A stretch of 64,000 nt of DNA from Patescibacteria group bacterium (GTDB lineage Bacteria > Patescibacteriota > Patescibacteriia > 2-01-FULL-39-33), in contig JBAZRV010000002.1 of the NCBI GenBank assembly GCA_041662745.1, positions 85,785 through 149,784 on the forward strand, read 5' to 3'. Position 1 is the stretch's first letter, and every line of letters begins with the position of its first letter. This document shows positions 11,244 to 50,046 of this stretch, in pieces. Both the position numbers and the translations under genes were made by a program. Under the pieces are notes generated by a model. That model saw only the letters and a program-made list of their open reading frames with translations, was not told the origin of the DNA and did not search any database.

Positions 11244-11244
11244 T

Positions 11245-23392: not shown

Positions 23393-23561
23393 AAATTTAG
23401 TATTAATAAATAACTTGTATTTAAAAATGATAAAAATTTTCTTTTACCCTGAATGCGAATTCAGACAAAACCGCCAATTGATTTTTGATTATAAAATTCC
23501 GTATGATTTGGTCGCCGCAAGCGGCGGCCAGACCGAGGGAAATTTGACTTTTATTCGAATG

Positions 23562-23633
23562 TACCGCCACGGGGAATCGAACCCCGATTACAGCCTTGAG
23601 AAGGCCGCGTCCTAACCATTAGACGATGGCGGC
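23562..23633 (-). tRNA. tRNA-Glu (anticodon CUC)
   Basis: Hand-folded cloverleaf: acceptor GCCGCCA/TGGCGGT, D-arm GTCT-AATGGTTA-GGAC, anticodon stem CGGCC/GGCTG with loop TTCTCAA, T-arm CGGGG-TTCGATT-CCCCG, discriminator A. The + strand ORF 23415..23615 is a shadow of it. Confidence 0.8.
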
Positions 23634-23798: not shown

Positions 23799-26114
23799 AT
23801 GAATCTAAAGCAATTTTTGGCGCCGGCATTAAAAGTTGTAATCTGGGCCTGTTTGGCGGTGGTGCTGTTTTCCGCTTTATACGTCAGTTCCGCTCTGTTT
23901 TTCCCCTTTATCACCTCCAAGACTTTTGCTTTTCAAATTGCCGTAGAGGTAATGTTTTTGGCCTTTTTGTTGCTTTGTTTGGTTGATGACAAATACCATA
24001 TCCGGCTTAATGTCACCGTGCTTTTGCTCCTGCTTTATCTGATAATCTTAACTATCGCCTCGGCTTTTTCCGGCAACGACCTTTATCATTCTTTCTGGTC
24101 CAACAACGAGCGTTGCGACGGCATTCTATTGTTAATTCATTTATTTTTATTTTGCGCCGTCTTGTCGGGTTTTTTCCGCTCTGTCAAAGAATGGCTGTAT
24201 CTTTTTGACCTGTTCTTGTTAGCTTCCTTTGCCGTCGCTTTGGTGGCGTTGGATCAATATTTGGCTTTGACCTTCGTCGGCTCTTGGAAGGATCACTTTT
24301 TACCCTCGTCAAACGGCGCGCGTTTGGCCGGAACCATCGGCAATTCCGGTTATGTCGGCGGTTATATGGTGTTTGGGATTTTTATCGCTTTATTCATGGC
24401 CTTGAAACGATCGCAGTGGTGGGCCAAGAGTTTGTATGTCTTAGCGATTATTTTGGAATTGTTCATCGCTGTCCAAACCTTCACTCGCGGCGCTTACCTG
24501 GCTTTGGGGCTGGGCGGATTCATCACCTTGGTTTATCTGGGTTATTTCTATTACAATAAATTGCGGTTGAAGATCGCAACCACGGGTTTAGTCTTAATCG
24601 TTTCATTATTTATCGTTGTCATCTTCGGTTGCGGCAGCGGCAAGATTTTAACCCCGGGTTTTGGGTTTTCTTGGGAGCAAGGATTCCATAAAACCGCCGT
24701 CTGCAATAATTTCGCTTATGCCAATCCGGTTTTAAAAAGAATCAATTCCATTTCCTTGACCGACGTTACCAGCAATAATCGCATCGTGGCTTGGACTATC
24801 GGTTTGAAGGGTATCGCCGCCAGGCCGATCCTGGGTTACGGCCAAGAGAATTTTTATCAAGTTTTTGACAAATATTATACGACTAAAAGTTCCGAACAGT
24901 GGTTTGATCGTTGCCATAATATGTTTTGCGATCGCGCCGTAACCGGCGGAATTCCGGGTTTGCTGTCCTATCTGGCCGTTCTGTTATTACCCTTCTTCTT
25001 TTTGTGGAAATATTATTTTAAGGAATACGGCAATAACAAAGAACAGGGGGATGCGGACAGGGATTACAAGAAGTATTTGACGCCGGTTATTTTCAGTATC
25101 TTGATTATCGCTTATCTGATCCAGAATTTTTTCATTTTTGAGGCCTTGGCGATTTACATCCCGCTGATAATCGTGTTGAGTTTCGTCGGCCAGTACAGCC
25201 GAAGTTGGAATTTTGATTTTTTAGAAAATCATAATTTTAAAGTGGCTCTGGCCGTAATCGTCGGTATTTTGTTTCTGCCGGCGCTTTGGTTTTTCAGCTT
25301 GAAACCGTTTTACGCCAATGCCGATTTTATCAAAGCCCTGACCAGGCCTTGGCCGACCCTGCAAGATAAGATTGATTCCTTTGAAGAAGTTATCGGTCGC
25401 GGCACTTTGGGCAACCAAGAGTATCGCAAGCATTACTTTGATTTTTATGGCAACGAACTGATGAGTTATTTGTCCCAGGCAGCCAACCGCACATCGGACA
25501 AAGACCGGCAAATGGCCAATTGGTCCGATTTGATGGAAAACCAATTCTTAAATCAGTTGAAAGAAAATCCCCATAGCGTTACCAATTGGCTGTTGCTTGA
25601 AAGATTTTATAATATTTCTTATGTTTTCAATGTCAATCGCCTGCAGAAGGCTATCGGCATTGCCGATCAGATGATCGCTCTAAGTCCGGGCAGACCTCAG
25701 ATATATTACGAAGCCGGCTCCGCTAATTATTATCTGGGCTGTTTCCTGCTGACTGAAAAAAATAACCCCGTGGAAGCCAAAAAGCAATATCAGCAAGCTT
25801 TGACCAGATTTTGGCAGGGCGCCAAGATCAATAATCAGGTCGGCAACGGCTTTGATCAATTCAGTGATTTTGTCTTATCCATTAAAAATAACGCCCAGAT
25901 TGCCGATACGTTCGCTCAAGCCTTGGCTACGGGACCGCTAGACGATATAGCGCCCTTAGAATTAATCAAGCAATTGGCCGAATGGTCCAAGACGCCGGAT
26001 GATCAGGCAATTATGGCGCAAAGGGAGGAGAAGCTTAAAACCATGGCCGTTTGGCTAATCGCTTCCCGAGCCGGCAATCCCGAATTAAAACAATACCTGG
26101 AAACAATCAAATAA
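23799..26114 (+). CDS. O-antigen ligase (Wzy_C) family membrane protein with C-terminal TPR-like domain (paralog of 11245..13428)
   Basis: Polytopic; DRCHNMFCDRAVTGGIPGLLSYLAVL motif parallels DRAHNFIFDILLASGLIGLLFY of the paralog; C-terminal ~280 aa soluble repeat domain. Confidence 0.65.
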   Translation: MNLKQFLAPALKVVIWACLAVVLFSALYVSSALFFPFITSKTFAFQIAVEVMFLAFLLLCLVDDKYHIRLNVTVLLLLLYLIILTIASAFSGNDLYHSFWSNNERCDGILLLIHLFLFCAVLSGFFRSVKEWLYLFDLFLLASFAVALVALDQYLALTFVGSWKDHFLPSSNGARLAGTIGNSGYVGGYMVFGIFIALFMALKRSQWWAKSLYVLAIILELFIAVQTFTRGAYLALGLGGFITLVYLGYFYYNKLRLKIATTGLVLIVSLFIVVIFGCGSGKILTPGFGFSWEQGFHKTAVCNNFAYANPVLKRINSISLTDVTSNNRIVAWTIGLKGIAARPILGYGQENFYQVFDKYYTTKSSEQWFDRCHNMFCDRAVTGGIPGLLSYLAVLLLPFFFLWKYYFKEYGNNKEQGDADRDYKKYLTPVIFSILIIAYLIQNFFIFEALAIYIPLIIVLSFVGQYSRSWNFDFLENHNFKVALAVIVGILFLPALWFFSLKPFYANADFIKALTRPWPTLQDKIDSFEEVIGRGTLGNQEYRKHYFDFYGNELMSYLSQAANRTSDKDRQMANWSDLMENQFLNQLKENPHSVTNWLLLERFYNISYVFNVNRLQKAIGIADQMIALSPGRPQIYYEAGSANYYLGCFLLTEKNNPVEAKKQYQQALTRFWQGAKINNQVGNGFDQFSDFVLSIKNNAQIADTFAQALATGPLDDIAPLELIKQLAEWSKTPDDQAIMAQREEKLKTMAVWLIASRAGNPELKQYLETIK

Positions 26115-27312: not shown

Positions 27313-27610
27313 AAGTTGTCGTCTTGATTTTTTTAGCTTATTTCTGATATAATATTAAGGTATTAATTGATAATTTACAAGACCGCCATGAACAAATTAA
27401 TCGGTTTTATCGGCCAGGGTTGGATCGGCAAAAGTATAGACATATTTTTGCGCTCCGCCCCAGGATGATTGAGTGATGATAAATAACGCTTTCATAAGTC
27501 GTCGTCTTGATTTTTTTAGCTTATTTTTGATATAATATTAAGGTATTGATTGATAATTTACAAGACCACTATGAACAAATTAATCGGTTTTATCGGCCAG
27601 GGTTGGATCG
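27245..27610. repeat. direct tandem duplication of a 183-bp unit (27245-27427 and 27428-27610, ~97% identical)
   Basis: Aligned by eye: the offset is exactly 183 with about 6 mismatches. Each unit carries the 5' end of the minus-strand GT4 gene, the divergent intergenic region and the 5' end of the + strand dehydrogenase-family gene. The junction has gcaaaa microhomology. Confidence 0.9.
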
Positions 27611-28422
27611 GCAAAAATTATGCCGATGACTTTGAAGTTAGAGGTTATCAAGTGATTCGCTATTCTTTGGAAGAACCCTATCTCGCCAACAAGGAAAAAA
27701 TCAGCGAGTGCGATATCGTGTTTATTGCCGTGCCTACTCCTACCACTCAAGCGGGGTTTGATGATTCCATCGTCAGAAGCGCCGTAAAGCTGGTCGGCCA
27801 AGGCAAGCTTGCGGTAATCAAATCTACGATTCTGCCCGGTACGACAGAGTCAATCCAAGCGGAAAACCCAGGCGTTTATTTGTTTCATTCGCCGGAGTTT
27901 CTGTCCGTTTCCACCGCTTATGACGATTCGCGCCATCCGCAAAGGAATATTGTCGGCCTGCCCATAGATAATGAGGAATATAAAACCAAAGCCCGAGAGG
28001 TGATGTCGGTGTTGCCCCAAGCTGATTTTTCTCTTATTACTTCCGCCAAAGAAGCGGAGTTGTTCAAATATTTACGGAATTGCTTTTTTTACACCAAAGT
28101 CGTCTATATGAATATGCTTTATGATCTGGCTAAGAAACTGGGTTGCCGGTGGGAAGTGTTAAGGGAAATCATGTCCAATGATCCCTGGATCGGCAACATG
28201 CATATTGATCCGGTGCATAAAAGCGGCCGGGGCGCCGGCGGAGAATGCTTTATTAAGGATTTGGCCGCGCTTAGGCGTTTCCACAAGCAAAATCTGAACG
28301 ATGAAACGACGGATTGGGTTTTTTCCGCCTTGGAGAAAAAGAATATTGAATTACTGCTAAAAAGCCAAAAAGATTTGGATTTGCTCAAAGGCGTTTACGG
28401 CGAAGATATATTTAAGAGATAG
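27571..28422 (+). CDS. short UDP-glucose/GDP-mannose dehydrogenase family protein (NAD-binding and catalytic-Cys region only)
   Basis: IGFIGQGWIGKNYA Rossmann motif; FIAVPTPT...VIKSTILPGTT; GAGGECFIKDL matches the catalytic GGxCFxKD motif. About 284 aa, so it lacks the usual C-terminal UDP-binding domain. The ATG at 27571 is preferred over track start 27550. Confidence 0.5.
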   Translation: MNKLIGFIGQGWIGKNYADDFEVRGYQVIRYSLEEPYLANKEKISECDIVFIAVPTPTTQAGFDDSIVRSAVKLVGQGKLAVIKSTILPGTTESIQAENPGVYLFHSPEFLSVSTAYDDSRHPQRNIVGLPIDNEEYKTKAREVMSVLPQADFSLITSAKEAELFKYLRNCFFYTKVVYMNMLYDLAKKLGCRWEVLREIMSNDPWIGNMHIDPVHKSGRGAGGECFIKDLAALRRFHKQNLNDETTDWVFSALEKKNIELLLKSQKDLDLLKGVYGEDIFKR

Positions 28423-31390: not shown

Positions 31391-32113
31391 ATGAAAGATA
31401 TTTTATTATTGCCCACCTACAACGAGAGAGAGAATGTCAAAATGATTATTCCTGAAATTTTTTCCCTTATTCCCGAAATAGTAGTCATGGTTATCGATGA
31501 TAATTCACCTGACGGCACGGCGCAAGCGGTGCAAGAGTTGATGACGATTTATCCCCGGTTAAGAATTTTGAAACGAGAAAAAAAGACCGGACTGGGCAAT
31601 GCCTATAAGGAGGCGATGCGTTTGGTTATGGCTGAAGACGGTGTCCGCTCGGTTATCACTATGGATGCCGATGGTTCTCATCAGCCCAAGTATTTGGTTG
31701 ATTTTTTGGCTAATATTAATGATTATGATTTAATCATTGGTTCGCGCTATATCCGGGGTGGCGGCGTAGAGAACTGGGAATTTTGGCGCCGTTGTTTAAG
31801 CCGTTTCGGCAATATTTATTCCAAGATTCTTACCGGCCTGCCGATTAATGATTTCACCGCCGGTTTTATGTGTGTTAAGGTGGATTTTTTAAAGCAGTTA
31901 GATTTGGTTAGTGCCGGCGCCTCGGGTTATTCTTTTTTGATTGAATTGAAATTCAATTTGATCCATAACCTAAAAGCCAGAGTCAAGGAAGTGCCGATTA
32001 TATTCAAAGTGAGAAGGGAAGGAGAATCCAAGCTGTCTAACTCAATTATCGGCGAGGGAATAATGACCCCGCTAAGAATTTGTTCCAGAAGAATATGGCA
32101 GAACAAAAAATAA
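31391..32113 (+). CDS. GT2 polyprenol-phosphate glycosyltransferase (Dpm1/ArnC-like)
   Basis: LLPTYNERENV...VIDDNSPDGT...DADGSH GT-A motifs; 240 aa. Confidence 0.8.
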   Translation: MKDILLLPTYNERENVKMIIPEIFSLIPEIVVMVIDDNSPDGTAQAVQELMTIYPRLRILKREKKTGLGNAYKEAMRLVMAEDGVRSVITMDADGSHQPKYLVDFLANINDYDLIIGSRYIRGGGVENWEFWRRCLSRFGNIYSKILTGLPINDFTAGFMCVKVDFLKQLDLVSAGASGYSFLIELKFNLIHNLKARVKEVPIIFKVRREGESKLSNSIIGEGIMTPLRICSRRIWQNKK

Positions 32114-35100
32114 TTTGCCCGATTTGCCGATCGGCTGACAATAAATTTTACGGCCAGAAAAATAATTTCAATCTGCGGTTATGCCGGGATTGCGATTTGC
32201 TTTTTGTTTGGCCGGTGCCGTTTGATTTAAAAGGAATTTATTCTCAAGATTATTTTGTTAACAGTCGGAATAACAGTGATTTCGGTTATACCAATTATGA
32301 TCAGGATAAAGAATCAATGCGCGAGGTATTTGTAAAAATCATCAGTCAGTTGGAAAAGCTTATCCCAGGTAGAAGAATTTTTGATGTCGGCGCGGCCACC
32401 GGTTATTTTTTGGACTTGACTAAGCAGCGGGGCTGGCAGACCGCGGGAACGGAAATATCTGACTACGCCGCTAAGGTCGCTAATGAACGCGGACATAGGG
32501 TTTTTTGCGGTGAGTTGGATCAGCTGCCAATTGAGGGTAAATTCGATGTGGTGACGATGTGGGACGTACTGGAGCATATTGGCGATCCCCTGGCCTATCT
32601 CAAGAAGGCTAATGACCTATTGGTTGATGGCGGCTTAGTGGCCATCAATACTGTAGATCGGGGCAGCGCTTTGGCCAGGGTTCTTGGGTTGAATTGGCAT
32701 TTGATTGTCCCGCCGGAGCATTTGAATTTTTATTCCCGCGAAAATTTAGAGATCGTTTTGCGACAAGCCGGGTTTGAAATCATTAGTATTTCCACTATCG
32801 GAAAGAAATTTTCTCTGGCGTATATTTTTAAGACGTTGTATTTCTGGCAGGGCTGGGGCTTATGGCGCAGTTTGTCAGTGTTTTTTGACAAACCGTTTTG
32901 GCGCCGCTGGTCTTTGCCGGTAAACTTGCGTGACAATATTTATATTTTGGCGAGAAAGAGAAGCAGTTCGATTGTCCGATTGCCAGGGGAAAACGCCGGT
33001 AAGCGAAAAAATTTATTAATTTGTGCCGGCATTTATCCGCCGGATATCGGTGGCCCGGCAACTTATGTGAAGGGTTTAGAAAGGGGATTAGCCGAAGAAT
33101 TTAATGTCAAAATCGTGACTTACGGCGACCAAGAAGGCCAAGAACCCTCTCACGTTTATAAGATATCTCGCCAACAGCAAGTTGTTTTTAGATATTTAAA
33201 ATATTTTTGGCAGGTGGTTAAGTTATTGCCGCAAGCGGATGTTGTTTATATTCAGGGGCCGGTTTCCGAAGGCTTGCCGGCTGCTGTGGCTTGCGGTTTA
33301 AGGCGCAAGGCATACCTATTAAAAATCGTCGGTGATTTTGCTTGGGAGCAGGGCAGCCAGCGTTATGGCGTCAAGGAGAATCTTGATAATTTTCAGCACA
33401 ATAAATACGGTTTCAAGATTGAATTATGGCGGCGGATTGAAAAATGGGTGGCGCAGAAAGCCAAGTTGGTTGTCGTTCCCAGTAATTATTTGAAAAAAGT
33501 CGTTACCGGTTGGGGCATTAAAGCTGACAAAATAAATGTCATCTATAATGCGATTGAAAGAATTGATATTATTGAAAACCGAGAGCAGCTAAGAAATAAG
33601 TATGGCCTGGATGGTTTTGTTATGTTATCGGTCGGTCGCCTAGTCCCCTGGAAGGGCTTGGCCGCCCTGATTGAAGTAGTCAAAGAATTGTCTGCAGAAA
33701 TTAATGATTTAAAATTAGTGATTATCGGTGACGGCCCGGAGCGTCAGAATTTGGAGAATTCAGTTAAGGCCAAAGGGTTGGAGAAAAACATTATTTTTAC
33801 CGGGCAATTAAGCAGGTCTGAGGTGGCTGCTTACTTGAAGGCCGCAGATTTGTTTATTTTAAACACTTCCTATGAGGGGTTAAGCCATGTTTTAATTGAG
33901 GCTATTAAGGCCGATTTGCCGATAGTTACGACCGCTGTTGGCGGTAATCCTGAATTAATGGAGCAATATGGCCACGGCTTTATGGTGGCCTATAATAATA
34001 AGCCGGAGTTGATTCAAGCAATCAAACAAGCTAGAAAAATTAATCGTCCGATTGAGACGACTGGAGATTTTTTATTGCAGTTCGATTATGATTTTATGGT
34101 TAGTCAGACCGGTCGGTTATTGCGGGCTGAAGCGGTTAGAACCGATATTGCCATTACCGATCAAAGACGAGAGAAAATTTTAAACGACTGTGATCGGCAA
34201 ACTATTGTTTTAGTTCAGATTAATTTTAGCCAAGACCATTCGGAAACAGTTTTGCCCCTAGGCATCTTATCGGTCGGCAGCCATTTGAAACGTTGCGGCT
34301 ATAAAGTTGAACTGGTAAATATTACGGAAAAACAAATTACTGAGATAGCCGCGATTATCGCCGAGAAAAATCCGCTCTGTGTCGGCTTATCAGTTATGAC
34401 CGGCGTGCAGACGCGCCAGAGCGCTGAATTATCCAAAAAAATAAAAACTTTAAATAAGGCCATACCAATTATTTGGGGCGGTATTCATCCGTCGCTTTTG
34501 CCAGAGCAGTGTCTGGGTGAGGATTACATTGATTTCGTAGTTATTTCTGAGGGAGAGATAACTACGACGGAATTAGTAGAAAAAATAATCAGAGGAGGGG
34601 ATTTTCATGATGTTTTAGGCATCGGCTATAAGCAAGCCGGAAAAATTACCATCAATCCCAACCGCCCGTTTATTGCCAACCTTGATGATTTCCGCCTTGA
34701 TTGGTCTTTATTGGATTTGGAGCTTTATATTTCTCCGTTGAAAAATTTTAAGCGAGTTATTGCTTACAAGGCCTCGCGCGGTTGCCCGTTTAATTGCTCT
34801 TTTTGCTATAATAATGCCTTTAATCAGAATAAGTGGCGTGTTTGGTCGGTGGAGGCGGTAGCGGAGGACATTAATTGGCTGAAAGAGCATTATCAGATTG
34901 ATGCCGTTAAATTTTACGATGATAATTTTTTTGTTGATAAGAATCGCGCTTGGCAGATCTTAGAAAAAATAAATTTACCGACGCATTTGGAGGTGCGAAT
35001 TGATACGATTGACGACGACTTGGCTCAAAAACTCAAAGAGTTTAGGGTTTTTGACATGTTAATCGGCGTCGAGTCGGGCAGCGATCGCATTTTAAGTCTA

Positions 35101-35631
35101 ATCGATAAAAGATTTACCGTTGATCGTATTTTGGCCGGAGTAAAGCTTTTAGCCAAGTATAATTTACCGGCTACTTATTCGGCGATTGTCGGTTTGCCGA
35201 CGGAAACCAAGGAAGAGTTTGACCGAACAGTTGACTTGTTTAATCAAATTAAAAAAATTCAGCCGTCCGCGGTTTTTTCCTTAGGCGCTTATTTGCCTTA
35301 TCCGGGATCAAAAATGTATGATTTTGCCATTAAGCAGGGTTTTAAGCCGCCAACTAAAACAGAAGATTGGGGCAAGATTGATCGTTTTAGGAAAGATTTT
35401 AGTTCGCCTTGGGTGAACGCGCAAAAAGTTTGGCGGATTAGGGAATACTTTAAACTCCTGAATTGGCGGCTTGGTCCAATTATCAAGTGGTTTAAATGGC
35501 GCATTGAGCATCGATTTTTTGCTTGGCCGATAGATATTTATTTAGTGGAATACTTTGGCGGTATAGCTATTGAACAGAGGGGGTTTTTAGGCAAGACACT
35601 AAGAAAAATTTATAATTTATTAAGAAGATAA
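32095..35631 (+). CDS. tri-domain fusion: Zn-ribbon plus class I SAM methyltransferase / GT4 glycosyltransferase / B12-binding radical SAM
   Basis: aa ~1-300: CPICRS...CRDCD zinc ribbon and IFDVGAATGYFLD MT motif I. aa ~310-690: GT4 with SYEGLSHVLIEAIKADLPIVTTAVGGNPEL. aa ~700-1183: B12-binding Rossmann region then ASRGCPFNCSFCYN CxxxCxxC. One uninterrupted 1183-aa frame. ATG at 32095; the track begins at TTG 32080. Confidence 0.7.
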   Translation: MAEQKIICPICRSADNKFYGQKNNFNLRLCRDCDLLFVWPVPFDLKGIYSQDYFVNSRNNSDFGYTNYDQDKESMREVFVKIISQLEKLIPGRRIFDVGAATGYFLDLTKQRGWQTAGTEISDYAAKVANERGHRVFCGELDQLPIEGKFDVVTMWDVLEHIGDPLAYLKKANDLLVDGGLVAINTVDRGSALARVLGLNWHLIVPPEHLNFYSRENLEIVLRQAGFEIISISTIGKKFSLAYIFKTLYFWQGWGLWRSLSVFFDKPFWRRWSLPVNLRDNIYILARKRSSSIVRLPGENAGKRKNLLICAGIYPPDIGGPATYVKGLERGLAEEFNVKIVTYGDQEGQEPSHVYKISRQQQVVFRYLKYFWQVVKLLPQADVVYIQGPVSEGLPAAVACGLRRKAYLLKIVGDFAWEQGSQRYGVKENLDNFQHNKYGFKIELWRRIEKWVAQKAKLVVVPSNYLKKVVTGWGIKADKINVIYNAIERIDIIENREQLRNKYGLDGFVMLSVGRLVPWKGLAALIEVVKELSAEINDLKLVIIGDGPERQNLENSVKAKGLEKNIIFTGQLSRSEVAAYLKAADLFILNTSYEGLSHVLIEAIKADLPIVTTAVGGNPELMEQYGHGFMVAYNNKPELIQAIKQARKINRPIETTGDFLLQFDYDFMVSQTGRLLRAEAVRTDIAITDQRREKILNDCDRQTIVLVQINFSQDHSETVLPLGILSVGSHLKRCGYKVELVNITEKQITEIAAIIAEKNPLCVGLSVMTGVQTRQSAELSKKIKTLNKAIPIIWGGIHPSLLPEQCLGEDYIDFVVISEGEITTTELVEKIIRGGDFHDVLGIGYKQAGKITINPNRPFIANLDDFRLDWSLLDLELYISPLKNFKRVIAYKASRGCPFNCSFCYNNAFNQNKWRVWSVEAVAEDINWLKEHYQIDAVKFYDDNFFVDKNRAWQILEKINLPTHLEVRIDTIDDDLAQKLKEFRVFDMLIGVESGSDRILSLIDKRFTVDRILAGVKLLAKYNLPATYSAIVGLPTETKEEFDRTVDLFNQIKKIQPSAVFSLGAYLPYPGSKMYDFAIKQGFKPPTKTEDWGKIDRFRKDFSSPWVNAQKVWRIREYFKLLNWRLGPIIKWFKWRIEHRFFAWPIDIYLVEYFGGIAIEQRGFLGKTLRKIYNLLRR

Positions 35632-41511: not shown

Positions 41512-42864
41512 ATGAAATTTTTTTTGTTAGTGCCGAATTTTAATCAAGGAAAAAAATCAATTATGAGTGTCAGGGCTAGACAGCCGCTGTCTATGGCGAT
41601 TATCGCTGCTATATTGATTAAAGATAGTCACCAGGTAAAATTACTGGACGCTAATGTTTTAAATTTATCTTTAACGGAGGTTCTGGCCGAGATTGCGGCT
41701 TATGGGCCGGATTTTTTTATTTTGACTTCAACTAAAATTGATCGCTGGGAGTGTCCCAATTCCAATATTGAAAATATTTTTCAGATTATCAATCAGGTTT
41801 CAGCTAAGTATAAAATTTTAATTGGCAGTCATGGCACTACTATGCCGGAATGGGTATTTGAAAATTGCCAAACAGATTTTATTATTCGAGGCGAACCTGA
41901 GTTAGCCGTTCAGAATTTGATTATCAGCCTGGTTAGTGGTCAAACTATTTCAAATATCGCCGGCTTATCTTATCGTCAAGGAGAGAAGATAATAAATAAT
42001 CCCAGCGAAAGAATAACTGACTTGGATATTTTGCCACTCCCGGCTTATAATTTATTGCCGATGGCTGAATACTCTTGTAATGATTTTGAAAAGCCTTTTT
42101 CAATTGTGATGACCTCGCGTGGCTGTCCCTATAATTGTATTTTTTGCCTTAAAGCAATGATGCCGGGTCAATATGTTGTTAGAAGTGTTGATAAGGTGCT
42201 CGAAGAAATAGAATACCTGATAAAAAATTTTCAAATTAAATCTATTTTTTTTCAAGATTGGGAATTTTTTATTGATAGTGACAGAGTCGAAAAAATTTGC
42301 TTGGAAATTATTAGACGTGGTTTAAAATTCACTTGGGGCGCTAATGCCCGAGCGACGGATATTACCAAAAGCGAATATCTCATGCCTTTAGTTAAGCAGG
42401 CTGGTTGCATTCTGATTAATTTGGGTATGGAATCTGCCAGTAATCGAGTTTTGGAACGAATTAATAAAAGAATAACTCAAGCTGATTTGCAACAAGCTGT
42501 AGATATTTTTAAGATTCATGGTATTAGTGGTGGTTATTGCGTCCTTTTAAATGCACCAGGGGAGAACCATCAAACGATTCAAGAAACGATTGATTTTGTG
42601 GTTAAAAATGATTTACAGGTTAAGCAATTTTTGCCAGTCATTCCTTACCCCGGCACAGTCCTCTTTGATCTTATTAAGAAGAAATTTCCTAATCGAATTT
42701 TAAATTGGAATAATATCGAACAATATGCTGGTTTAATCGAAGTTGAAAGTAAACCTTTTTGGAGCCTGTGGTTTTTAAGAAATTATAAAAATCATCTGAA
42801 ATATGGCCGAGGCTACTGGTTAAGGCCGGTTTTTTGGCGCGAAGTTGTTCTAAAAAATAAATAG
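41512..42864 (+). CDS. B12-binding domain radical SAM protein (class B)
   Basis: N-terminal cobalamin-binding Rossmann-like region; MTSRGCPYNCIFCLK. Confidence 0.8.
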   Translation: MKFFLLVPNFNQGKKSIMSVRARQPLSMAIIAAILIKDSHQVKLLDANVLNLSLTEVLAEIAAYGPDFFILTSTKIDRWECPNSNIENIFQIINQVSAKYKILIGSHGTTMPEWVFENCQTDFIIRGEPELAVQNLIISLVSGQTISNIAGLSYRQGEKIINNPSERITDLDILPLPAYNLLPMAEYSCNDFEKPFSIVMTSRGCPYNCIFCLKAMMPGQYVVRSVDKVLEEIEYLIKNFQIKSIFFQDWEFFIDSDRVEKICLEIIRRGLKFTWGANARATDITKSEYLMPLVKQAGCILINLGMESASNRVLERINKRITQADLQQAVDIFKIHGISGGYCVLLNAPGENHQTIQETIDFVVKNDLQVKQFLPVIPYPGTVLFDLIKKKFPNRILNWNNIEQYAGLIEVESKPFWSLWFLRNYKNHLKYGRGYWLRPVFWREVVLKNK

Positions 42865-44288: not shown

Positions 44289-45437
44289 TTGAATATGAAT
44301 TTTGATTTGTTTAATACTTTAAAGAAATTATTGTCATTACCGCTGGCCGGTTGGTTAAGATTGGTTGGTCTTATTTTTATTCGTAAAACCACTAGCCGCG
44401 CAGTAGTAGTTTTTTATAACGGCAAATTGGGTGATATGGTTTGCTTGACACCGGTGTTAGCCGCCTTAAAAAGTAATTATCCAAATCAGAAGCTGATCGT
44501 CTATGCCCGGAATAATTTTTTAGATGTTTGGCAGAATAATCCCAATTTGGATGAAATTATAGGTTTCGCTGGGGAGCAAGAATCCGGCCGATTTAGTTGG
44601 TTAATTAAACAATGGCAACGATTAAACTCTTTTCAGATTACTGCTTATTATAATTTGATGAATAATTTCGAAGGTGGGATTTTGGGGTTAATGTTGGCGG
44701 CCGATTGCCATTATACTGTTTCTACCGAGTTGGATGGCCGGTTATTACGTTTGCTTTATCATTTTTATTCAACGAACGAATATAAATTTGATTGTTTGAT
44801 AAAAGATTTCTATTTTGAATGGCTGAAAAAAAATGGTTTGAAGATTGAGGGTAATTTGCGGAATCAACTTTTTTTTCCGGGTGATCAAGATGAGGTGGAA
44901 GATTTTTTTTCTGCCAACTCTTTAGCCGGGCAAACGGTTATCAGCGTCATTATTTCTTCTGGTAAGGATTATAAAATTTGGCCTTTGAGCTATTGGTTGG
45001 AATTATTAAAAAGATTACAGAATGAATATCAGCCGGTTTTTTTGCTGTTTGGGTTGAAAGAGGATGAAAATTATTTAGAACAGATCAAAACTGAGATTGG
45101 TGTTAATGTTTATTTAATTTTGGGTAAAGATTTAGAAATTATTCCTTACTATTTAAAAAAAAGTCACTTGTTTATCGGCGTTGATACTGGCTTGTTGTAT
45201 ATGGCTGATGCTTTGTCAATTCCCGTGGTTGATATTTTGGGACCCTGTGATGATAATAACCAACGGCCGGAAAATACTTATCGCTTGGTGACTGATCGGG
45301 CCGTTTGCCGGCCGCAATGCAAAATGTTGTACAATGCGCCGATTAATAAAACTGAAGTAGCGGCTTGTTTTTTAGCAATCAGGCCGGAACAAGTTTTCGG
45401 GGCTTGTCGGGATTTGTTATTATTAGTAATTAGGTAA
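44289..45437 (+). CDS. glycosyltransferase family 9 (heptosyltransferase-like)
   Basis: GKLGDMVCLTPVLAALKSNYPNQKLIVYA resembles the GT9 N-terminal motif. Confidence 0.6.
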   Translation: MNMNFDLFNTLKKLLSLPLAGWLRLVGLIFIRKTTSRAVVVFYNGKLGDMVCLTPVLAALKSNYPNQKLIVYARNNFLDVWQNNPNLDEIIGFAGEQESGRFSWLIKQWQRLNSFQITAYYNLMNNFEGGILGLMLAADCHYTVSTELDGRLLRLLYHFYSTNEYKFDCLIKDFYFEWLKKNGLKIEGNLRNQLFFPGDQDEVEDFFSANSLAGQTVISVIISSGKDYKIWPLSYWLELLKRLQNEYQPVFLLFGLKEDENYLEQIKTEIGVNVYLILGKDLEIIPYYLKKSHLFIGVDTGLLYMADALSIPVVDILGPCDDNNQRPENTYRLVTDRAVCRPQCKMLYNAPINKTEVAACFLAIRPEQVFGACRDLLLLVIR

Positions 45438-45454
45438 AATATTAATTAAAATAA

Positions 45455-46813
45455 ATGAAATTATTTTTTAATAAAATAAAATCAGTAATAAAAGCAGTTT
45501 GGGATTATTTTTGGAAACTTAATTTTTTTCGCGATCTTTTATTTTTACAATGGGGCTCATTTTGGGATTTAGGCTTGTCGCTGATGGCTTCAGTTGTTTA
45601 TGCCCACCTGTTGGGAGTCGGGACTTATGGCGATTACGCTTTGATTTTCGCCCTAGCCGCTTTAATCGGGTTATTTATGGATTGGGGGACTGGTTATGCC
45701 ACCTTGACTTTACTTGCTGAAGCCTATACCAGAAAAAACCGTTCTGAGATTAAAGATATTATTACTTATTTTTTAAAGCTCAATTTGATTATTACGGTCA
45801 CTTTCGGTTTGGTGGCAATAATTTTTACTCCGACTTTAGCGGGTTGGTTTTACCATAACCCACTGATTGGTCAGTTAGCCCGGTTGGTTATTATTGGCTC
45901 TATTTTTAAAATTTTCTTTTCCTTGCTTATCAATTTGTTGCAAGTCATGCGTAAAATTAAGTATTTGACGATAATTGAGAATGTAAATAAATTTTTTGCG
46001 GTTGTTTTGCCGGTTATCCTGGTCTTAATGGGTTTTGGTTTGGCCGGCATTGTTTACGGCTATTTATTGACGATCATCGGCTCCATGGTTTTTTCTATTT
46101 TAGTTTATCGCAATTTTTCTCGACGCAATCCCTTGGTGCCTTCTTTCTCTGAAATCATTGATAATTTTTTTAAGGTTAAAATAAAAAAATATTTTAAATT
46201 CGGATTTATTTTGGCTATAGATAAAAATTTGTCTAATTTATTCGGTATTTTGCCGCTGATAGTTTTGGGTTACTTGGCCGCTTCCACTGATGTAGCTAAT
46301 TTAAAAATCGCCTTGGCTTATTTGGCCCTGCCGAATGGTTTTTTAAATCCGATCAGCCGCTTATTGCAAGTGCAGCTGCCTAAGGCCAAAGTCGCCGGCA
46401 TCAAAGATTTAAAAGTTAATTTTTATAAATCATCTTTTTATGCCGGCACAATTTTCATTTTTCTGACTTTGGGATTTTTATTTTTCGCCCCGTTTTTGAT
46501 TAAATTGGTTTATGGCAAGTCCTTTGCCGCCAGCGCTCAATTAGTCTATCCACTTAGTTTGAGCGTGATTTTTTCCGGTTTTGCAATCGGCTTCGGTTCC
46601 ATTTATCGGACGATCAATAAGAATATTTTTGCCATCGCTATCAATTCAGCCAGTATTCTATCCGGATTTATCGTGTTGTTTTTCGCCTTAAAATCGTTGT
46701 CTCCATTAAATAGCGTCGTCTTACTGATAGTCTATTGGTCTCTGTTTAATCTTATCAGCCATCTTCTTTACATCAGGGGCTACTTTTTAAAACTAAGTTC
46801 CCAAAAAATATGA
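45455..46813 (+). CDS. oligosaccharide flippase family protein (Wzx-like, polysaccharide biosynthesis protein)
   Basis: About 12-14 TM helices; 452 aa; lies within the GT cluster. Confidence 0.55.
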   Translation: MKLFFNKIKSVIKAVWDYFWKLNFFRDLLFLQWGSFWDLGLSLMASVVYAHLLGVGTYGDYALIFALAALIGLFMDWGTGYATLTLLAEAYTRKNRSEIKDIITYFLKLNLIITVTFGLVAIIFTPTLAGWFYHNPLIGQLARLVIIGSIFKIFFSLLINLLQVMRKIKYLTIIENVNKFFAVVLPVILVLMGFGLAGIVYGYLLTIIGSMVFSILVYRNFSRRNPLVPSFSEIIDNFFKVKIKKYFKFGFILAIDKNLSNLFGILPLIVLGYLAASTDVANLKIALAYLALPNGFLNPISRLLQVQLPKAKVAGIKDLKVNFYKSSFYAGTIFIFLTLGFLFFAPFLIKLVYGKSFAASAQLVYPLSLSVIFSGFAIGFGSIYRTINKNIFAIAINSASILSGFIVLFFALKSLSPLNSVVLLIVYWSLFNLISHLLYIRGYFLKLSSQKI

Positions 46814-47979
46814 GGATCGGCTTGGATTACATTAATGCACTAGGCGTGGGCGGGCTAAGCACCTACAGTCAGAATTTAATCGAAAGCTTGGCGTTGATTG
46901 ATGAGGAAAACCAATATTTTCTTGGCAATTATTGCCATGATTTTTTGCCTGGACGATCAAGGCAAAAATTCAACAATCCCAATTTTAAGCTGGCTCCAGT
47001 TTATGTAAGTCCGTTGGGCCTAAGTCTTCCGGAAAAGTTTATGGCGGCTGTTAATCGGCGATCAGTCAAACTAAATTATAAGCTGAGGCGATTGGATTTT
47101 TTTCATTTCACTAATCCCTTAAATTATGTTTTGGGCGTTAAATGCGGCATTGTAACGATTCATGATTTGGCCTTGTTGCATAATCGGACTTGGGCCAAGG
47201 ATTATGTTGTTTCAGCTTTTGTTGATAATATCGGAAAAATCATCGGCGAATCAAAAAGGATTATTGCCGATTCCGAATTCACTAAGAATGACATTGTCAA
47301 GTTTTTCAGTACTGATGAGAAAAAAATTTCCGTCATTCACTTGGCGGCATCCGCAAAATATTATCCGGATATTGACCGTGAATATTTGGCGGCTGAATTC
47401 GGCCTTAAAAATTTTATTTTTTATGCCGGCCAATTGCAGCCAAGAAAAAATATCTTGCGATTGTTGGAGGCCTATAGTTTGTTGCCGAATGATTTAAAAG
47501 ACAGGTATCAATTAATTTTGGCCGGCCGGCCGCGCAACCAAGAATTTCTGTCGGAGATAAATAAGGCCTTAGAGCGATTTAATTTGGTCGGCCAGGTAAA
47601 GATCATGGGGTTTGTTTCAAACACAGATTTGCGGAAACTTTATAGTTGTGCTAAATTTTTTGTTTATCCGTCGCTATTTGAGGGTTTTGGTCTGCCGATT
47701 TTGGAAGCCTATAATTGCGGTACTCCGGTCATAACTTCCAACACTTCGTCTTTGCCGGAAGTGGCCGGGACTAAAGCGGCGATTTTAGTCGATCCGGAGG
47801 ATGTCAAAACTTTGGGAGCGGCGATGGAAAAATTGTTGGTTGATCAGGAATTATACGAAAGTTTAAAAAGCCATGCCTTATTGGAAGCAAAAAAATTCAG
47901 TTGGCAGGCAACGGCAGAAAAAACCAAAGCCGTTTATGAAGATGTTTATCGGGAATTAAAACAAAATTATGGCCGTTAA
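46810..47979 (+). CDS. glycosyltransferase family 4
   Basis: FEGFGLPILEAYNCGTPVITSNTSSLPEV. Confidence 0.8.
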   Translation: MRIGLDYINALGVGGLSTYSQNLIESLALIDEENQYFLGNYCHDFLPGRSRQKFNNPNFKLAPVYVSPLGLSLPEKFMAAVNRRSVKLNYKLRRLDFFHFTNPLNYVLGVKCGIVTIHDLALLHNRTWAKDYVVSAFVDNIGKIIGESKRIIADSEFTKNDIVKFFSTDEKKISVIHLAASAKYYPDIDREYLAAEFGLKNFIFYAGQLQPRKNILRLLEAYSLLPNDLKDRYQLILAGRPRNQEFLSEINKALERFNLVGQVKIMGFVSNTDLRKLYSCAKFFVYPSLFEGFGLPILEAYNCGTPVITSNTSSLPEVAGTKAAILVDPEDVKTLGAAMEKLLVDQELYESLKSHALLEAKKFSWQATAEKTKAVYEDVYRELKQNYGR

Positions 47980-48925
47980 TTATCCTAAAGTGGACATTAT
48001 AATTTGCTCGTATCGCAACAAGGATTTGACAGCTAAATGCCTTGACTCTTTGCTTAATTCTATTTATACTGATTATAGAATTATTTTAGTTGATGACGAT
48101 TCGCCGGACGATTCCGTTGCTTTTTTTAAACAAAATTATCCGACTATCACTATTATTGAAAACTCGATTAATTTAGGCGCCGCCCTGGCCCGCAATGTAG
48201 GTATTGATGCCGGTCAAGCCGAATACGTGGTTACAATGGATAACGATGCTTCACTTTCGCCAGCTTGGCTTGGACAAATGGTGGAATTGATGGATGCTGA
48301 CAAAACAATCGGCCAGGCGGTTGGCAAAATTTTATTTGCTGATAAACCGGACATAATTGCCGCCGCCGGAGGCAGTATGTTTTTTCGCGGTAAAGGATAT
48401 GACATCGGACAAGGGAATGACGCTAATGATGCCAAATATAATCAGCCGAGGAACGTGTTGTTTGCCTGCAGTGCCGCCATGATTGTCCGGCGTGAGATTT
48501 TGCAAGCCGTGGGTGGATTTTATGGCGGTTTTTTCCATGGTTATGAAGATGTTGATTTATCATTAAGAATAAATATTGCCGGTTACCGTGTTTTCTATTA
48601 TCCTTCGGCAACCAGCTATCATTTGATAAGTGCTACGATTGCTGACACGATTAAGCGGCGGCACAGCACTTATTTGTTTATGCGCAATCGTCTTTTAATC
48701 ATGCTGAGGAATTATGAATTAAAAAGCTTAGTGAAGTATTTGCCGCTTAATCTGCGTTTTAATTTAAGATTATGCCTTGACAATCGGGAAAACATTTGGC
48801 CTTTTATCCTTAGTCACTTTTCCTTTATCAGGGAAATTCCTAATATTATCCGAGCGCGCCGTTTATTAAATAAAATTAGAACCGCAACCGACCGGCAACT
48901 GGAATCATTATTTAATCTTGATTAA
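47969..48925 (+). CDS. glycosyltransferase family 2
   Basis: VDIIICSYRN...ILVDDDSPDDS...DNDA GT-A motifs. Confidence 0.75.
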   Translation: MAVNYPKVDIIICSYRNKDLTAKCLDSLLNSIYTDYRIILVDDDSPDDSVAFFKQNYPTITIIENSINLGAALARNVGIDAGQAEYVVTMDNDASLSPAWLGQMVELMDADKTIGQAVGKILFADKPDIIAAAGGSMFFRGKGYDIGQGNDANDAKYNQPRNVLFACSAAMIVRREILQAVGGFYGGFFHGYEDVDLSLRINIAGYRVFYYPSATSYHLISATIADTIKRRHSTYLFMRNRLLIMLRNYELKSLVKYLPLNLRFNLRLCLDNRENIWPFILSHFSFIREIPNIIRARRLLNKIRTATDRQLESLFNLD

Positions 48926-48933
48926 ATTTTATT

Positions 48934-50022
48934 ATGAATCTTTATACTAGACTAAAAATAATTAAACAAAATTGGCCAATAGGCAAGTTCTATTTTTATC
49001 ATCTATTTAGGCGGGATTGGCCGCTTTATAGTTTGATTTTTCAAGTAACCAATCAATGCAACTCTCGTTGCCTAATGTGTTTTAATTGGCAAATTATCAA
49101 TACGGAGACCGATGAGCTTTCTTTGGCGGAAATAGAAAAATTTTCTAAAAGCATCGGTACTGTCAGTAGTGTTATTCTGGGCGGCGGCGAACCTTGTTTG
49201 CGTGTTGATCTGCCGGAAATCTGCAAAATTCTTTATCAAAGCGGCGTCACTAAGAAAATTGTTTTGCCGACTAATTGCCTATTGCCGGATTTGATAATCG
49301 ATCAGACTAAAAAAATATTAGAAATCGCCCCGGTTAAATTGAAAGTTGTTTTATCTTTAGACGGAATCGGAAATGTTCATGATGAAATTCGCGGCATTCA
49401 AGGCAATTTTGAAAAATTTATTGATACTTACAACCGTCTGGAAGAAATATCTCACACCCATGATTTATTGCAGGTTAGCGTCAACACTACGATTTCTGAC
49501 AAAAATCAGGATAATATTTCGGCGATTATTGATTATATTGATCAGCATCTCAAATTCAAATATCATACCGCCGAAGTTATCCGCGGCACATTTGATAAGG
49601 CTAAAATTGGACCGCCGGCCCTGGCTAAATACGAAGAATTAATTGATCAAACTTTACTCAAGAGCCAAACCACCGATCGTGATCCGGCGCATAAATTATT
49701 CTATGCCTATTATCATAAATTGGCGCTAAAAATGATGAAGCGGAAGAAACAAATTTTGCCTTGCCGTTCCTCCTCTTTTTTTCCGGTGATTGACGCTTGG
49801 GGTAATGTTTATAATTGTGAGATGCTGCCTAAATTGGGAAATTTAAGGGGTTATGATTACGATTTAAAGAAAATTTGGCATTCTCCGACCGCTCAAAACC
49901 AGCGTCACAATATTAGAAATAAAAAATGCTGGTGTACCCATTATTGCTATCAATCACCAAACATTTTAATAAGTCCTTGGCATCTGTTCAAGGCGGTTTT
50001 TGGCGATTATTTTTTCAAATAA
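48934..50022 (+). CDS. radical SAM protein with SPASM-like C-terminal domain
   Basis: QVTNQCNSRCLMCFNW; C-terminal Cys-rich CRSS...NCEML...CWCTHYC. Confidence 0.7.
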   Translation: MNLYTRLKIIKQNWPIGKFYFYHLFRRDWPLYSLIFQVTNQCNSRCLMCFNWQIINTETDELSLAEIEKFSKSIGTVSSVILGGGEPCLRVDLPEICKILYQSGVTKKIVLPTNCLLPDLIIDQTKKILEIAPVKLKVVLSLDGIGNVHDEIRGIQGNFEKFIDTYNRLEEISHTHDLLQVSVNTTISDKNQDNISAIIDYIDQHLKFKYHTAEVIRGTFDKAKIGPPALAKYEELIDQTLLKSQTTDRDPAHKLFYAYYHKLALKMMKRKKQILPCRSSSFFPVIDAWGNVYNCEMLPKLGNLRGYDYDLKKIWHSPTAQNQRHNIRNKKCWCTHYCYQSPNILISPWHLFKAVFGDYFFK

Positions 50023-50046
50023 ACTATTGGCCGCTATTTTAAACTT

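What the first reader, a model, noticed from the sequence alone, without database searches (positions are those of the whole stretch)
32080..35631. Single 1183-aa ORF fusing Zn-ribbon/SAM-methyltransferase, GT4 glycosyltransferase and B12-binding radical SAM domains
Three enzymatic modules that occur as separate neighbouring genes elsewhere in the locus (38567 MT, 40354 GT4, 41512 B12-rSAM) are joined here in the same order in one continuous frame. A covalent glycosyltransfer/methylation/radical-modification assembly line would be a new architecture. It implies the three activities act on the same acceptor.
Basis: seen in the sequence. Interest (0 to 1): 0.75.

Follow-up and report, generated by a model that had tools for sequence, protein, structure and literature searches.

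The report
Three-enzyme fusion in a Patescibacteria glycan cluster
A real 1178-residue gene in an uncultured Patescibacteria genome joins a methyltransferase, a glycosyltransferase and a B12-type radical SAM enzyme that related bacteria encode as separate genes of the same sugar-polymer cluster, so it is a rare gene fusion and not a new kind of machine.

Summary
The ORF is real. It runs 32095 (ATG) to 35631 and encodes 1178 aa. It contains three complete enzymes:
- a Zn-ribbon class I SAM methyltransferase (aa 1-289);
- a GT4 glycosyltransferase (aa 307-680);
- a cobalamin-type radical SAM enzyme (aa 702-1178).

The modules are joined by linkers of 17 and 21 aa. It is not a frameshift artefact. 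A separate assembly gives the identical protein. A 74%-identical ortholog keeps the frame, with only in-frame linker indels. All modules have dN/dS of 0.03-0.13.

It is not a copy of genes 38567/40354/41512. Each module has abundant stand-alone orthologs in Patescibacteria, at 48-49% (GT4) to 71-72% (MT, B12-rSAM) identity. In the closest unfused relatives these sit in the same conserved cluster. One block move plus lost stop codons explains the fusion.

The exact tri-module architecture appears only in this lineage, among 5.8 billion clustered proteins and 1.84 billion representatives. Related fusions of the same parts exist: GT4-GT4-rSAM, rSAM-GT4, rSAM-GT9, rSAM-MT and GT2-MT.

The chemistry of the rSAM module is undetermined. 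Methylation and dehydration or ring contraction are all possible.

Verdict: a new variant of the known multi-module glycan-assembly enzymes, of moderate interest. Its main value is as evidence linking an uncharacterised B12-rSAM family to glycan tailoring.

The parts
32095..35631 (+). Fused gene, ATG to stop; 1178-aa protein. The mechanical ORF starts at TTG 32080.
   Evidence: The identical 1178-aa protein is in NCBI as MFA6227911.1, from a Patescibacteria MAG. The identical sequence also occurs in Logan contig L002.
32116..32193 (+). Four-Cys zinc ribbon (C8, C11, C30, C33).
   Evidence: CPxC...CxxC is visible in the translation. All four Cys are invariant in 46 family members.
32095..32961 (+). 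Module 1, aa 1-289: a complete class I SAM-dependent methyltransferase (Methyltransf_23).
   Evidence: Pfam 102.6 bits. Stand-alone orthologs of 288-294 aa align end to end at 68-72%. Motif I D97/G99/G103 is invariant. dN/dS is 0.13.
32962..33012 (+). Linker 1, aa 290-306.
   Evidence: It lies beyond the end of the stand-alone MTs and before the first residue of stand-alone GT4b proteins. It holds the only indels against the ortholog, all in frame, net 7 aa. dN/dS is 0.46.
33013..34134 (+). Module 2, aa 307-680: a complete GT4 (GT-B) glycosyltransferase, here called 'GT4b'.
   Evidence: Pfam PF13439 and PF00534. G319, G320, R515, K520 and E594-x7-E602 are at least 95% conserved in 66 relatives. 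The closest relatives are P0004 (50%) and the C-terminal half of ~750-aa double GT4s. dN/dS is 0.12.
34135..34197 (+). Linker 2, aa 681-701.
   Evidence: Its length is the same in the three fused orthologs, but the sequence is divergent. pN is 0.41 and dS is saturated. Stand-alone rSAM orthologs start at residues equivalent to 702-704.
34198..34704 (+). Module 3a, aa 702-870: a B12-binding (Rossmann-like) domain.
   Evidence: Pfam PF02310, 73.6 bits. The family-invariant MTGxQT and GGxH motifs are present. dN/dS is 0.08.
34705..35334 (+). Module 3b, aa 871-1080: the radical SAM core, with the CxxxCxxC cluster motif (C897, C901, C904; nt 34783-34806).
   Evidence: Pfam PF04055, 87.7 bits. The Cys residues are invariant in 113 orthologs. 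The AF2 model has pLDDT 92, and Foldseek matches OxsB, MgmA, TsrM, TokK, AprD4 and CysS. dN/dS is 0.03.
35335..35628 (+). C-terminal helical tail of the rSAM module, rich in basic and aromatic residues.
   Evidence: The last 83 aa contain 18 K/R and 18 W/F/Y, with no transmembrane segment. The region is helical in the model and conserved in stand-alone orthologs. A membrane- or substrate-binding role is inferred.
31391..32113 (+). Upstream GT2 gene (polyprenyl-phosphate glycosyltransferase-like). Its 3' end overlaps the fusion's start by 19 nt.
   Evidence: The same GT2-then-MT overlap (16 nt) occurs in unfused relative L042. GT2 and MT are fused in P0376.

Best explanation
This is a genuine gene of a Patescibacteria (CPR) genome. 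It encodes a soluble or peripheral 1178-aa protein made of three complete enzymes placed end to end: a Zn-ribbon class I SAM methyltransferase, a retaining GT4 glycosyltransferase and a cobalamin-type (class B) radical SAM enzyme.

Origin. It arose by gene fusion inside a conserved Patescibacteria glycan-assembly cluster. In the nearest unfused relatives the gene order is A (GT4), B (GT4b-like), C (B12-rSAM), D (GT4), E (PMT_2), F (GT2), G (MT), H (GT4). The window has A, E, F, G~B~C, D, H. One block move brought the MT next to GT4b and the rSAM gene, and the stop codons were then lost. The GT4b~rSAM join happened once, in the ancestor of the window protein, P0002 and P0003.

Inferred mechanism. 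The protein works at the cytoplasmic membrane face on a polyprenyl-phosphate-linked oligosaccharide, which is started by the Bac_transf enzyme at 63166-63873.
- The GT4 module adds a sugar from a nucleotide sugar.
- The radical SAM module modifies an unactivated carbon of that or a neighbouring sugar. C-methylation is the most likely reaction.
- The N-terminal methyltransferase adds an O- or N-methyl group, possibly as a cap.
- Fusion gives fixed stoichiometry and proximity.

Shown: gene integrity, module identity, intact catalytic motifs, purifying selection, origin by fusion and cluster context. Inferred: substrates, reaction chemistry, order of action and any channelling.
For: Integrity:
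- The ORF is continuous.
- The identical protein occurs in an independent Logan assembly and in NCBI/JGI at 1178 aa.
- The ortholog in L001 (73% nt, 74% aa) keeps one frame, with only in-frame linker indels.
- P0003 (75%) and the fragment P0331 (66%, spanning aa 516-759) keep the GT4-rSAM junction.
- dN/dS is 0.13 (MT), 0.12 (GT4), 0.08 (B12 domain) and 0.03 (rSAM core), against 0.46 in linker 1.

Modules and motifs. The rSAM module model has pLDDT 92 and matches the class B fold.

Origin:
- Stand-alone orthologs map to aa 1-289, 307-680 and 702-1178.
- The B12-rSAM ortholog stands alone in about 33 species genomes, within a conserved gene order.
- The closest unfused loci are L041 and L042.
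- The fused rSAM modules are monophyletic.

Pathway context: the locus also encodes Bac_transf, a Wzx-like flippase, GT2/PMT_2 pairs, deacetylases and many GT4s.

Precedent: WsaE has an N-terminal O-methyltransferase plus GT modules (PMC2943079). [quoted passage not shown]
Against: - There are no biochemical data for any member of these three families.
- No module reaches a curated NCBIfam equivalog cut-off.
- The nearest solved relatives of the rSAM module are all 13-19% identical. They include non-methylases that act on sugars or nucleosides, AprD4 (dehydratase) and OxsB (ring contraction), as well as methylases.
- There is no evidence for an inter-module interface. The full-length AF2 model failed (pLDDT 38) and the linkers are unconstrained.
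- In most genomes the GT4 next to the rSAM ortholog is only 25-42% identical to the fused GT4, so strict partner orthology is uncertain.
- Patescibacteria are not known to synthesise cobalamin (my own knowledge, not tested here).
Confidence: 0.6

Rival explanations
1. The architecture and pathway are the same, but the B12-type radical SAM module is not a methylase. It instead performs a rearrangement, dehydration, epimerisation or ring contraction on the sugar just installed. The analogy is HpnI (GT), then HpnK (deacetylase), then HpnJ (B12-rSAM, glucosamine to cyclitol), or AprD4 diol dehydration.
For: - AprD4 is the best PDB sequence hit (7e-15) and has the highest TM-score (0.70/0.73).
- OxsB is the top Foldseek hit.
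- HpnJ is the second-best NCBIfam hit (128 bits).
- A polysaccharide deacetylase gene lies three genes downstream (37807) and is syntenic in relatives.
- The HpnI/K/J scheme is described in PMC13459092.
Against: - All of these matches are far below family cut-offs: HpnJ 128 vs 577.6, AprD4 65 vs 500.
- Four of the six nearest solved structures are methylases: MgmA, TsrM, TokK and CysS.
- To my knowledge, most characterised class B enzymes are methylases.
Confidence: 0.25
2. The fusion is a neutral by-product of genome compaction. The three enzymes belong to one cluster but act on different intermediates or different acceptors (for example a glycolipid or the lipid carrier), and being joined confers no coupling.
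For: - Genes in the cluster routinely overlap or abut.
- The same parts are fused in many different combinations and orders: rSAM-GT4 (P0309), rSAM-GT9 (P0314), rSAM-MT (P0141 and P0308), GT2-MT (P0376), MT-GT4-sulfotransferase (P0437) and GT2-GT4-GT4-GT-C (P0004).
- The linkers evolve freely.
- Most species keep the genes separate.
- B12-rSAM enzymes that act on lipids are well known (PMC13459092).
Against: - The fusion has persisted across at least 26% protein divergence, with all modules under strong constraint.
- Linker 2 has kept its length in three lineages.
- The rSAM ortholog is found almost exclusively among glycosyltransferase genes.
Confidence: 0.12
3. The long ORF is an artefact (missed stop, frameshift or chimeric assembly) or a decaying pseudogene, and the organism really has three genes.
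For: Only the general prior that very long multi-domain ORFs in MAGs can be assembly errors. Read-level data could not be inspected.
Against: - An independent assembly gives the identical sequence.
- Two divergent orthologs and one fragment from other samples keep both or one junction in frame.
- No Met or start codon remains at the former gene starts.
- dN/dS is 0.03-0.13 in every module.
Confidence: 0.03

Closest known systems
WsaE of Geobacillus stearothermophilus NRS 2004/3a (S-layer glycan biosynthesis)
   Same: It is a single soluble polypeptide with an N-terminal O-methyltransferase domain followed by glycosyltransferase modules. It is encoded in a glycan cluster with tightly packed or overlapping genes and acts on a lipid-linked glycan (PMC2943079).
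   Different: WsaE has two rhamnosyltransferase modules and no radical SAM module. It belongs to an ABC-transporter-dependent pathway. Sequence relatedness to the window protein was not tested.
Multi-module O-antigen enzymes (Klebsiella O7 ORF6 methyltransferase-kinase plus two GT modules; the WbdD/WbdA type)
   Same: [quoted passage not shown]
   Different: The tailoring chemistry there is polar (methyl or phosphate capping) and uses coiled-coil rulers. No radical SAM or cobalamin module is involved.
Cobalamin-dependent (class B) radical SAM enzymes that act on sugars after glycosyl transfer (GenK/GenD1 C-methylases of gentamicin; HpnJ after HpnI/HpnK; the AprD4 dehydratase)
   Same: They share the two-domain fold (B12-type Rossmann domain plus radical SAM barrel) and they modify an unactivated sugar carbon after a glycosyltransferase step (PMC4340712 is listed).
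   Different: Those enzymes are separate proteins in secondary-metabolite or hopanoid pathways. The window module is only 13-19% identical to any solved member and lies far below every curated family cut-off.
Unannotated database fusions from the same toolkit (P0003 GT4-GT4-rSAM; P0309 rSAM-GT4; P0314 rSAM-GT9; P0065 GT4-rSAM; P0141 family rSAM-MT)
   Same: Each links a B12-type radical SAM enzyme covalently to a glycan-pathway enzyme. P0003 shares the very same GT4b~rSAM junction.
   Different: None has all three modules in this order. P0309, P0314, P0065 and the P0141 clade are independent fusion events in other branches, or with a different methyltransferase.

Membership tests
Class I SAM-dependent methyltransferases (Pfam Methyltransf_23, PF13489) | Profile match above the gathering score. 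| tested here: met
   102.6 bits against a cut-off of 27, aa 78-231.
Class I SAM-dependent methyltransferases (Pfam Methyltransf_23, PF13489) | A conserved Gly-rich SAM-binding motif I with its following acidic residues. | tested here: met
   D97, G99, A101, G103 and W156-D157-V158-x-E160-H161 are invariant in 46 members.
Class I SAM-dependent methyltransferases (Pfam Methyltransf_23, PF13489) | Methyl transfer to a defined acceptor. | not testable with these tools
   The nearest PDB entries are uncharacterised methyltransferases (1vlm, 3cc8). No NCBIfam equivalog is reached.
GT4 glycosyltransferases (GT-B fold, retaining) | Both Rossmann halves are recognised (Glyco_transf_4 plus Glycos_transf_1). 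| tested here: met
   54.1 bits and 132.9 bits, both above cut-off.
GT4 glycosyltransferases (GT-B fold, retaining) | The EX7E motif and the basic residues that bind the donor phosphate. | tested here: met
   E594-x7-E602, R515, K520, G319 and G320 are at least 95% conserved in 66 relatives.
Cobalamin-dependent (class B) radical SAM enzymes | An N-terminal B12-binding domain followed by a radical SAM core with CxxxCxxC. | tested here: met
   PF02310 at 73.6 bits and PF04055 at 87.7 bits. C897, C901 and C904 are invariant.
Cobalamin-dependent (class B) radical SAM enzymes | Fold similarity to solved members. | tested here: met
   The model has pLDDT 92.2. Foldseek E-values of 1e-21 to 1e-17 and TM-scores of 0.62-0.70 link it to OxsB, MgmA, TsrM, TokK, AprD4 and CysS.
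Cobalamin-dependent (class B) radical SAM enzymes | Actually binds cobalamin and uses it in catalysis. | not testable with these tools
   AprD4, one of the closest structures, is a dehydratase and not a methylase. Cofactor content needs a biochemical test.
HpnJ (TIGR03471) | Score at or above the curated cut-off of 577.6. | tested here: not met
   128 bits.
BchE (TIGR02026), PhpK family (TIGR04479) and AprD4 family (NF033070) | Score at or above the curated cut-offs of 481, 600 and 500. | tested here: not met
   137, 125 and 65 bits respectively.
TIGR04157 glyco_rSAM_CFB (a glycosyltransferase family named for its association with radical SAM genes) | Score at or above the curated cut-off of 400. 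| tested here: not met
   90.5 bits for the GT4 module alone.
WsaE-type trifunctional glycan enzymes | An N-terminal methyltransferase followed by glycosyltransferase module(s) in one chain. | tested here: met
   The domain order is MT then GT4. The WsaE description is in PMC2943079.
WsaE-type trifunctional glycan enzymes | Two glycosyltransferase modules that form the repeat unit; sequence homology to WsaE. | tested here: not met
   There is only one GT module, and the third module is a radical SAM enzyme. Homology to the WsaE sequence itself was not tested.

The most novel reading that the evidence does not exclude
The fusion may mark a previously unrecognised way of building bacterial surface glycans, in which each sugar is radically rewritten as it is added. 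On this reading the GT4 module installs a sugar and the tethered B12-type radical SAM module immediately converts it into a C-branched or carbocyclic (cyclitol-like) unit. The six B12-rSAM and three SPASM radical SAM enzymes of this one locus would together make a heavily radical-tailored polymer unique to Patescibacteria. The organism would have to scavenge cobalamin from its host to make that polymer.
Probability: 0.12. Interest if true: 0.75.

Novelty: new variant of a known kind. Interest (0 to 1): 0.4.

Why it matters
Substrates are unknown for most cobalamin-type radical SAM enzymes. Here a family with more than 1100 detectable members (E<=1e-30), nearly all in Patescibacteria glycan clusters, is covalently tied to a specific GT4 glycosyltransferase and a methyltransferase. 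That is a concrete, testable pointer: the substrate should be the glycan intermediate made by that GT.

It also shows that these reduced-genome bacteria devote a large, radical-SAM-rich locus to their surface polymer, with nine radical SAM enzymes in about 37 kb. The locus is being reshuffled by repeated gene fusions.

The protein is already public (MFA6227911.1), annotated only as 'glycosyltransferase'.

Tried and rejected
1. I first read the genome scan (query residues ~303-1178 matched) as showing that the GT4-rSAM fusion is widespread. ORF mapping showed that tblastn had joined adjacent genes. The rSAM ortholog stands alone in all of about 33 genomes, and I corrected the reading.

2. I built a deep full-length alignment for AlphaFold (A2). 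MAFFT misplaced the single-module rows (about 22% identity where BLAST gives 55-72%), so I discarded it.

3. I ran full-length AF2 on the only valid alignment (A1, three sequences). The result was pLDDT 38 and pTM 0.29, which says nothing about domain packing or linkers.

4. NCBIfam scans of the whole protein and of the separate modules reached no curated family.

5. Sequence search of the PDB found only distant relatives.

6. Literature searches found no paper describing the cluster or a GT-rSAM fusion. The terms covered Patescibacteria/CPR with radical SAM, glycosyltransferase and cobalamin, and fused GT with B12-binding domains.

7. A promoter and terminator scan of 27-37 kb found nothing above shuffled controls and no terminator-like signal specific to the junctions.

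8. I rejected the artefact or pseudogene reading (see rivals).

9. I rejected the idea that the fusion duplicates genes 38567/40354/41512.

Full report
**Observation**

The window has one uninterrupted + strand ORF at 32080..35631, 1183 aa from a TTG. The real start is the ATG at 32095, giving 1178 aa. That is the length under which the identical protein is deposited: NCBI MFA6227911.1, 'MAG: glycosyltransferase [Patescibacteria group bacterium]', on a 238,918-bp contig. The Cys pairs that follow the ATG are part of a conserved domain. The start overlaps the stop of the upstream GT2 gene by 19 nt.

- Methyltransf_23, aa 78-231;
- Glyco_transf_4, aa 318-488;
- Glycos_transf_1, aa 496-646;
- B12-binding, aa 720-827;
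- Radical_SAM, aa 893-1048.

**Is it an artefact?**

No.
- A separately assembled Logan contig (SRR6484324, L002) encodes the identical protein, including the N-terminus. Its gene caller merely picked a later start.
- A JGI contig from another sample (L001, protein P0002) is 73% identical in DNA and 74% in protein. It keeps a single frame through both junctions. The only indels are in frame, inside the first linker, net 7 aa.
- P0003 (75%) and the fragment P0331 (66%, spanning aa 516-759) keep the GT4-to-rSAM junction.
- Window-versus-L001 dN/dS is 0.13 (MT), 0.12 (GT4), 0.08 (B12 domain) and 0.03 (rSAM core). Linker 1 is at 0.46 and linker 2 is saturated.
- No Met remains at the former gene starts.

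**Anatomy**

Stand-alone orthologs align end to end with aa 1-289, 307-~680 and 702/704-1178. The protein is therefore three complete enzymes joined by linkers of 17 and 21 aa. Catalytic signatures are intact:
- four invariant Cys (C8, C11, C30, C33) and SAM motif I (D97/G99/G103) in the MT;
- G319/G320, R515, K520 and E594-x7-E602 in the GT4;
- C897-x3-C901-x2-C904 plus the family-invariant MTGxQT and GGxH motifs in the rSAM module.

There is no transmembrane segment (maximum 19-residue hydropathy 1.48). The last 83 residues carry 18 K/R and 18 aromatic residues and are helical in the model. From that composition I infer, as a possibility only, a peripheral membrane- or substrate-binding tail. 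The rSAM module alone models confidently (pLDDT 92.2, pTM 0.87).

**Relation to the other genes of the locus**

Those genes do have MT, GT4 and B12-rSAM domains. However:
- a SPASM radical SAM gene (39231) lies between the first two;
- the fused GT4 is closest to g35638 and g28470 (26-30%);
- the fused rSAM is closest to g53699 (30%), against 25% for g41512;
- the fused MT has no BLAST similarity to g38567.

**Where the parts come from**

*B12-rSAM module.* It belongs to a large family: 1102 hits at E<=1e-30. The best 120 are 59-71% identical and almost all are about 478 aa and stand-alone.

*MT module.* It has stand-alone orthologs of about 290 aa, up to 72% identical.

*GT4 module.* It is closest to P0004 (50%), a GT2-GT4-GT4-membrane domain protein. 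It also matches the C-terminal half of the ~750-aa double GT4s common in Patescibacteria.

*My corrected misreading.* I first misread a genome scan as showing the GT4-rSAM fusion in about 33 species. ORF mapping corrected this: in every one of those genomes the rSAM ortholog is a separate ORF of 476-517 aa.

*Conserved gene order.* Those loci share this order: w28470-like GT4; GT4b-like GT4; often a second rSAM paralog; the rSAM ortholog; sometimes a small MT; w35638-like GT4; w36773-like GT4.

*Closest unfused relatives.* L041 and L042 have this order, with percent identity to the window genes:

| Gene | Product | Identity to window | Note |
|---|---|---|---|
| A | GT4 | 67% | |
| B | GT4b-like | 39% | |
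| C | B12-rSAM | 71% | starts 4 nt after B |
| D | GT4 | 45% | |
| E | PMT_2 | 63% | |
| F | GT2 | 77% | |
| G | MT | 68% | overlaps F by 16 nt |
| H | GT4 | | |

The window order is A, E, F, G~B~C, D, H. One block move plus the loss of two stop codons accounts for it.

*Single fusion event.* In a neighbour-joining tree the rSAM modules of the window protein, P0002 and P0003 form one clade nested among stand-alone genes, which indicates a single GT4b~rSAM fusion event. P0003 has a second GT4 in place of the MT at its N-terminus, and in its genome an MT is fused to the next gene instead.

**How rare is it?**

In 5.8 billion clustered proteins, only the window protein (with its Logan twin) and P0002 have MT-GT4-B12-rSAM. 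An exhaustive phmmer scan of 1.84 billion representatives found nothing that covers all three modules. The best hit is a stand-alone rSAM at 787 bits.

The same toolkit is fused in many other ways:
- rSAM-MT, with a different, Zn-ribbon-less MT (the P0141 clade; P0308, P0325);
- rSAM-GT4 (P0309);
- rSAM-GT9 (P0314);
- GT4-rSAM in a high-GC organism (P0065);
- GT2-MT (P0376);
- DUF2334-MT-GT4-sulfotransferase (P0437);
- triple GT4s.

A covalent GT/B12-rSAM link is therefore recurrent in sequence data. I found no paper that describes it.

**What does it do?**

The context is a polyprenyl-phosphate-based glycan pathway. The locus encodes:
- a Bac_transf initiating transferase (63166-63873);
- a Wzx-like flippase (45455);
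- two GT2/PMT_2-type pairs;
- Wzy_C/O-antigen-ligase-like proteins;
- deacetylases;
- about nine GT4 genes, and one GT9.

No module reaches a curated NCBIfam family. The rSAM module has the class B fold. OxsB, MgmA, TsrM, TokK, AprD4 and CysS are all about equally distant (TM 0.62-0.70, 13-19% identity).

My best-supported model is that the GT4 module adds a sugar to the lipid-linked intermediate, the rSAM module then modifies an unactivated sugar carbon, and the N-terminal MT adds an O- or N-methyl group. C-methylation is the commonest chemistry of this class, and GenK/GenD1 are sugar precedents. WsaE's N-terminal MT is the precedent for the third step (PMC2943079). A non-methylating reaction (AprD4-like dehydration or HpnJ-like ring contraction; PMC13459092) is a serious alternative. 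All of this mechanism is inference.

The fusion argues for a shared pathway. It does not prove channelling. The linkers are unconstrained, most species keep the genes apart, and a full-length AlphaFold model was uninformative (pLDDT 38).

**Verdict**

This is a lineage-specific gene fusion within a widespread but uncharacterised Patescibacteria glycan cluster. It is a new variant of the known multi-module glycan-assembly enzymes (WsaE, Klebsiella O7 ORF6; PMC2943079, PMC11231755), not a categorically new system. Its main value is as a Rosetta-stone link that makes the substrate of a large B12-rSAM family experimentally approachable.

Noticed in passing
window 27550-63873: The glycan locus holds six B12-binding radical SAM domains (the fusion, 41512, 42866, 53699, 57522(-), 58962(-)) and three SPASM radical SAM genes (39231, 48934, 62100(-)) in about 37 kb. 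That is an unusual density for a reduced-genome Patescibacteria MAG, which presumably cannot make cobalamin.
   Followed up: partly
window 41512-42864 vs L001 9110-10573: The B12-rSAM gene 41512 is absent from the syntenic ortholog contig L001. There the w40354-like GT4 is followed directly by the w42866-like rSAM, at 86% nt identity against about 73% for the flanks. Window genes 44289-51819 are also missing or replaced in L001.
   Followed up: partly
window 51823-53547; L001 10613-13274: This 574-aa ORF has no Pfam or NCBIfam match. In L001 the homologous region (69% nt) is the C-terminal part of an ORF of more than 982 aa that begins with GT4 domains, which is another lineage-specific fusion.
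   Followed up: no
window 6775-10344: This 1189-aa ORF has no Pfam or NCBIfam hit. It lies just downstream of an ECF-type sigma factor (4630-5181) and a DUF5667 protein (5184-6368).
   Followed up: no
window 31391-32113 / 32095; L042 7288-8016 / 8001-8867; P0376: The GT2 gene overlaps the start of the MT (or of the fusion) by 19 nt in the window and by 16 nt in unfused relative L042. In P0376 the two are fused into one 527-aa GT2-MT protein.
   Followed up: partly
L010, L014, L016, L032 (gene just after the rSAM ortholog); P0141, P0161, P0171, P0174, P0179, P0183: A different small class I methyltransferase (GCGxG motif, no Zn ribbon) sits immediately downstream of the rSAM ortholog in several genomes. 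In about 5% of the top hits it is fused to the rSAM C-terminus, giving ~720-aa proteins. This is a second, independent rSAM-MT association.
   Followed up: partly
window 27550-28422: This UDP-glucose/GDP-mannose dehydrogenase-like ORF is only 290 aa and lacks about the first 70 profile positions of the NAD-binding domain. The same short form (285-288 aa) occurs at the equivalent place in the P0003 locus and in L041, so it is conserved and not a truncation artefact.
   Followed up: no
window 11218-13428 and 23799-26114: Two large membrane proteins resemble O-antigen ligase/Wzy_C/IctB proteins, and the first has C-terminal TPR repeats. They may be polymerase or ligase candidates for the glycan.
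   Followed up: no
L003 (CAZEWH010000001.1) and L029 (MGVC01000008.1): A MAG labelled 'uncultured Gammaproteobacteria' carries the typical Patescibacteria cluster with a 69%-identical rSAM ortholog, which suggests mis-binning or mislabelling. An Elusimicrobia MAG has a 49% ortholog in a similar context.
   Followed up: no
window 1541-3425 (-), 23561-23633 (-): Chromosomal markers are present: ribosomal protein L1, NusG and tRNA-Glu(CTC). They show that the window is chromosomal and not from a mobile element.
   Followed up: yes
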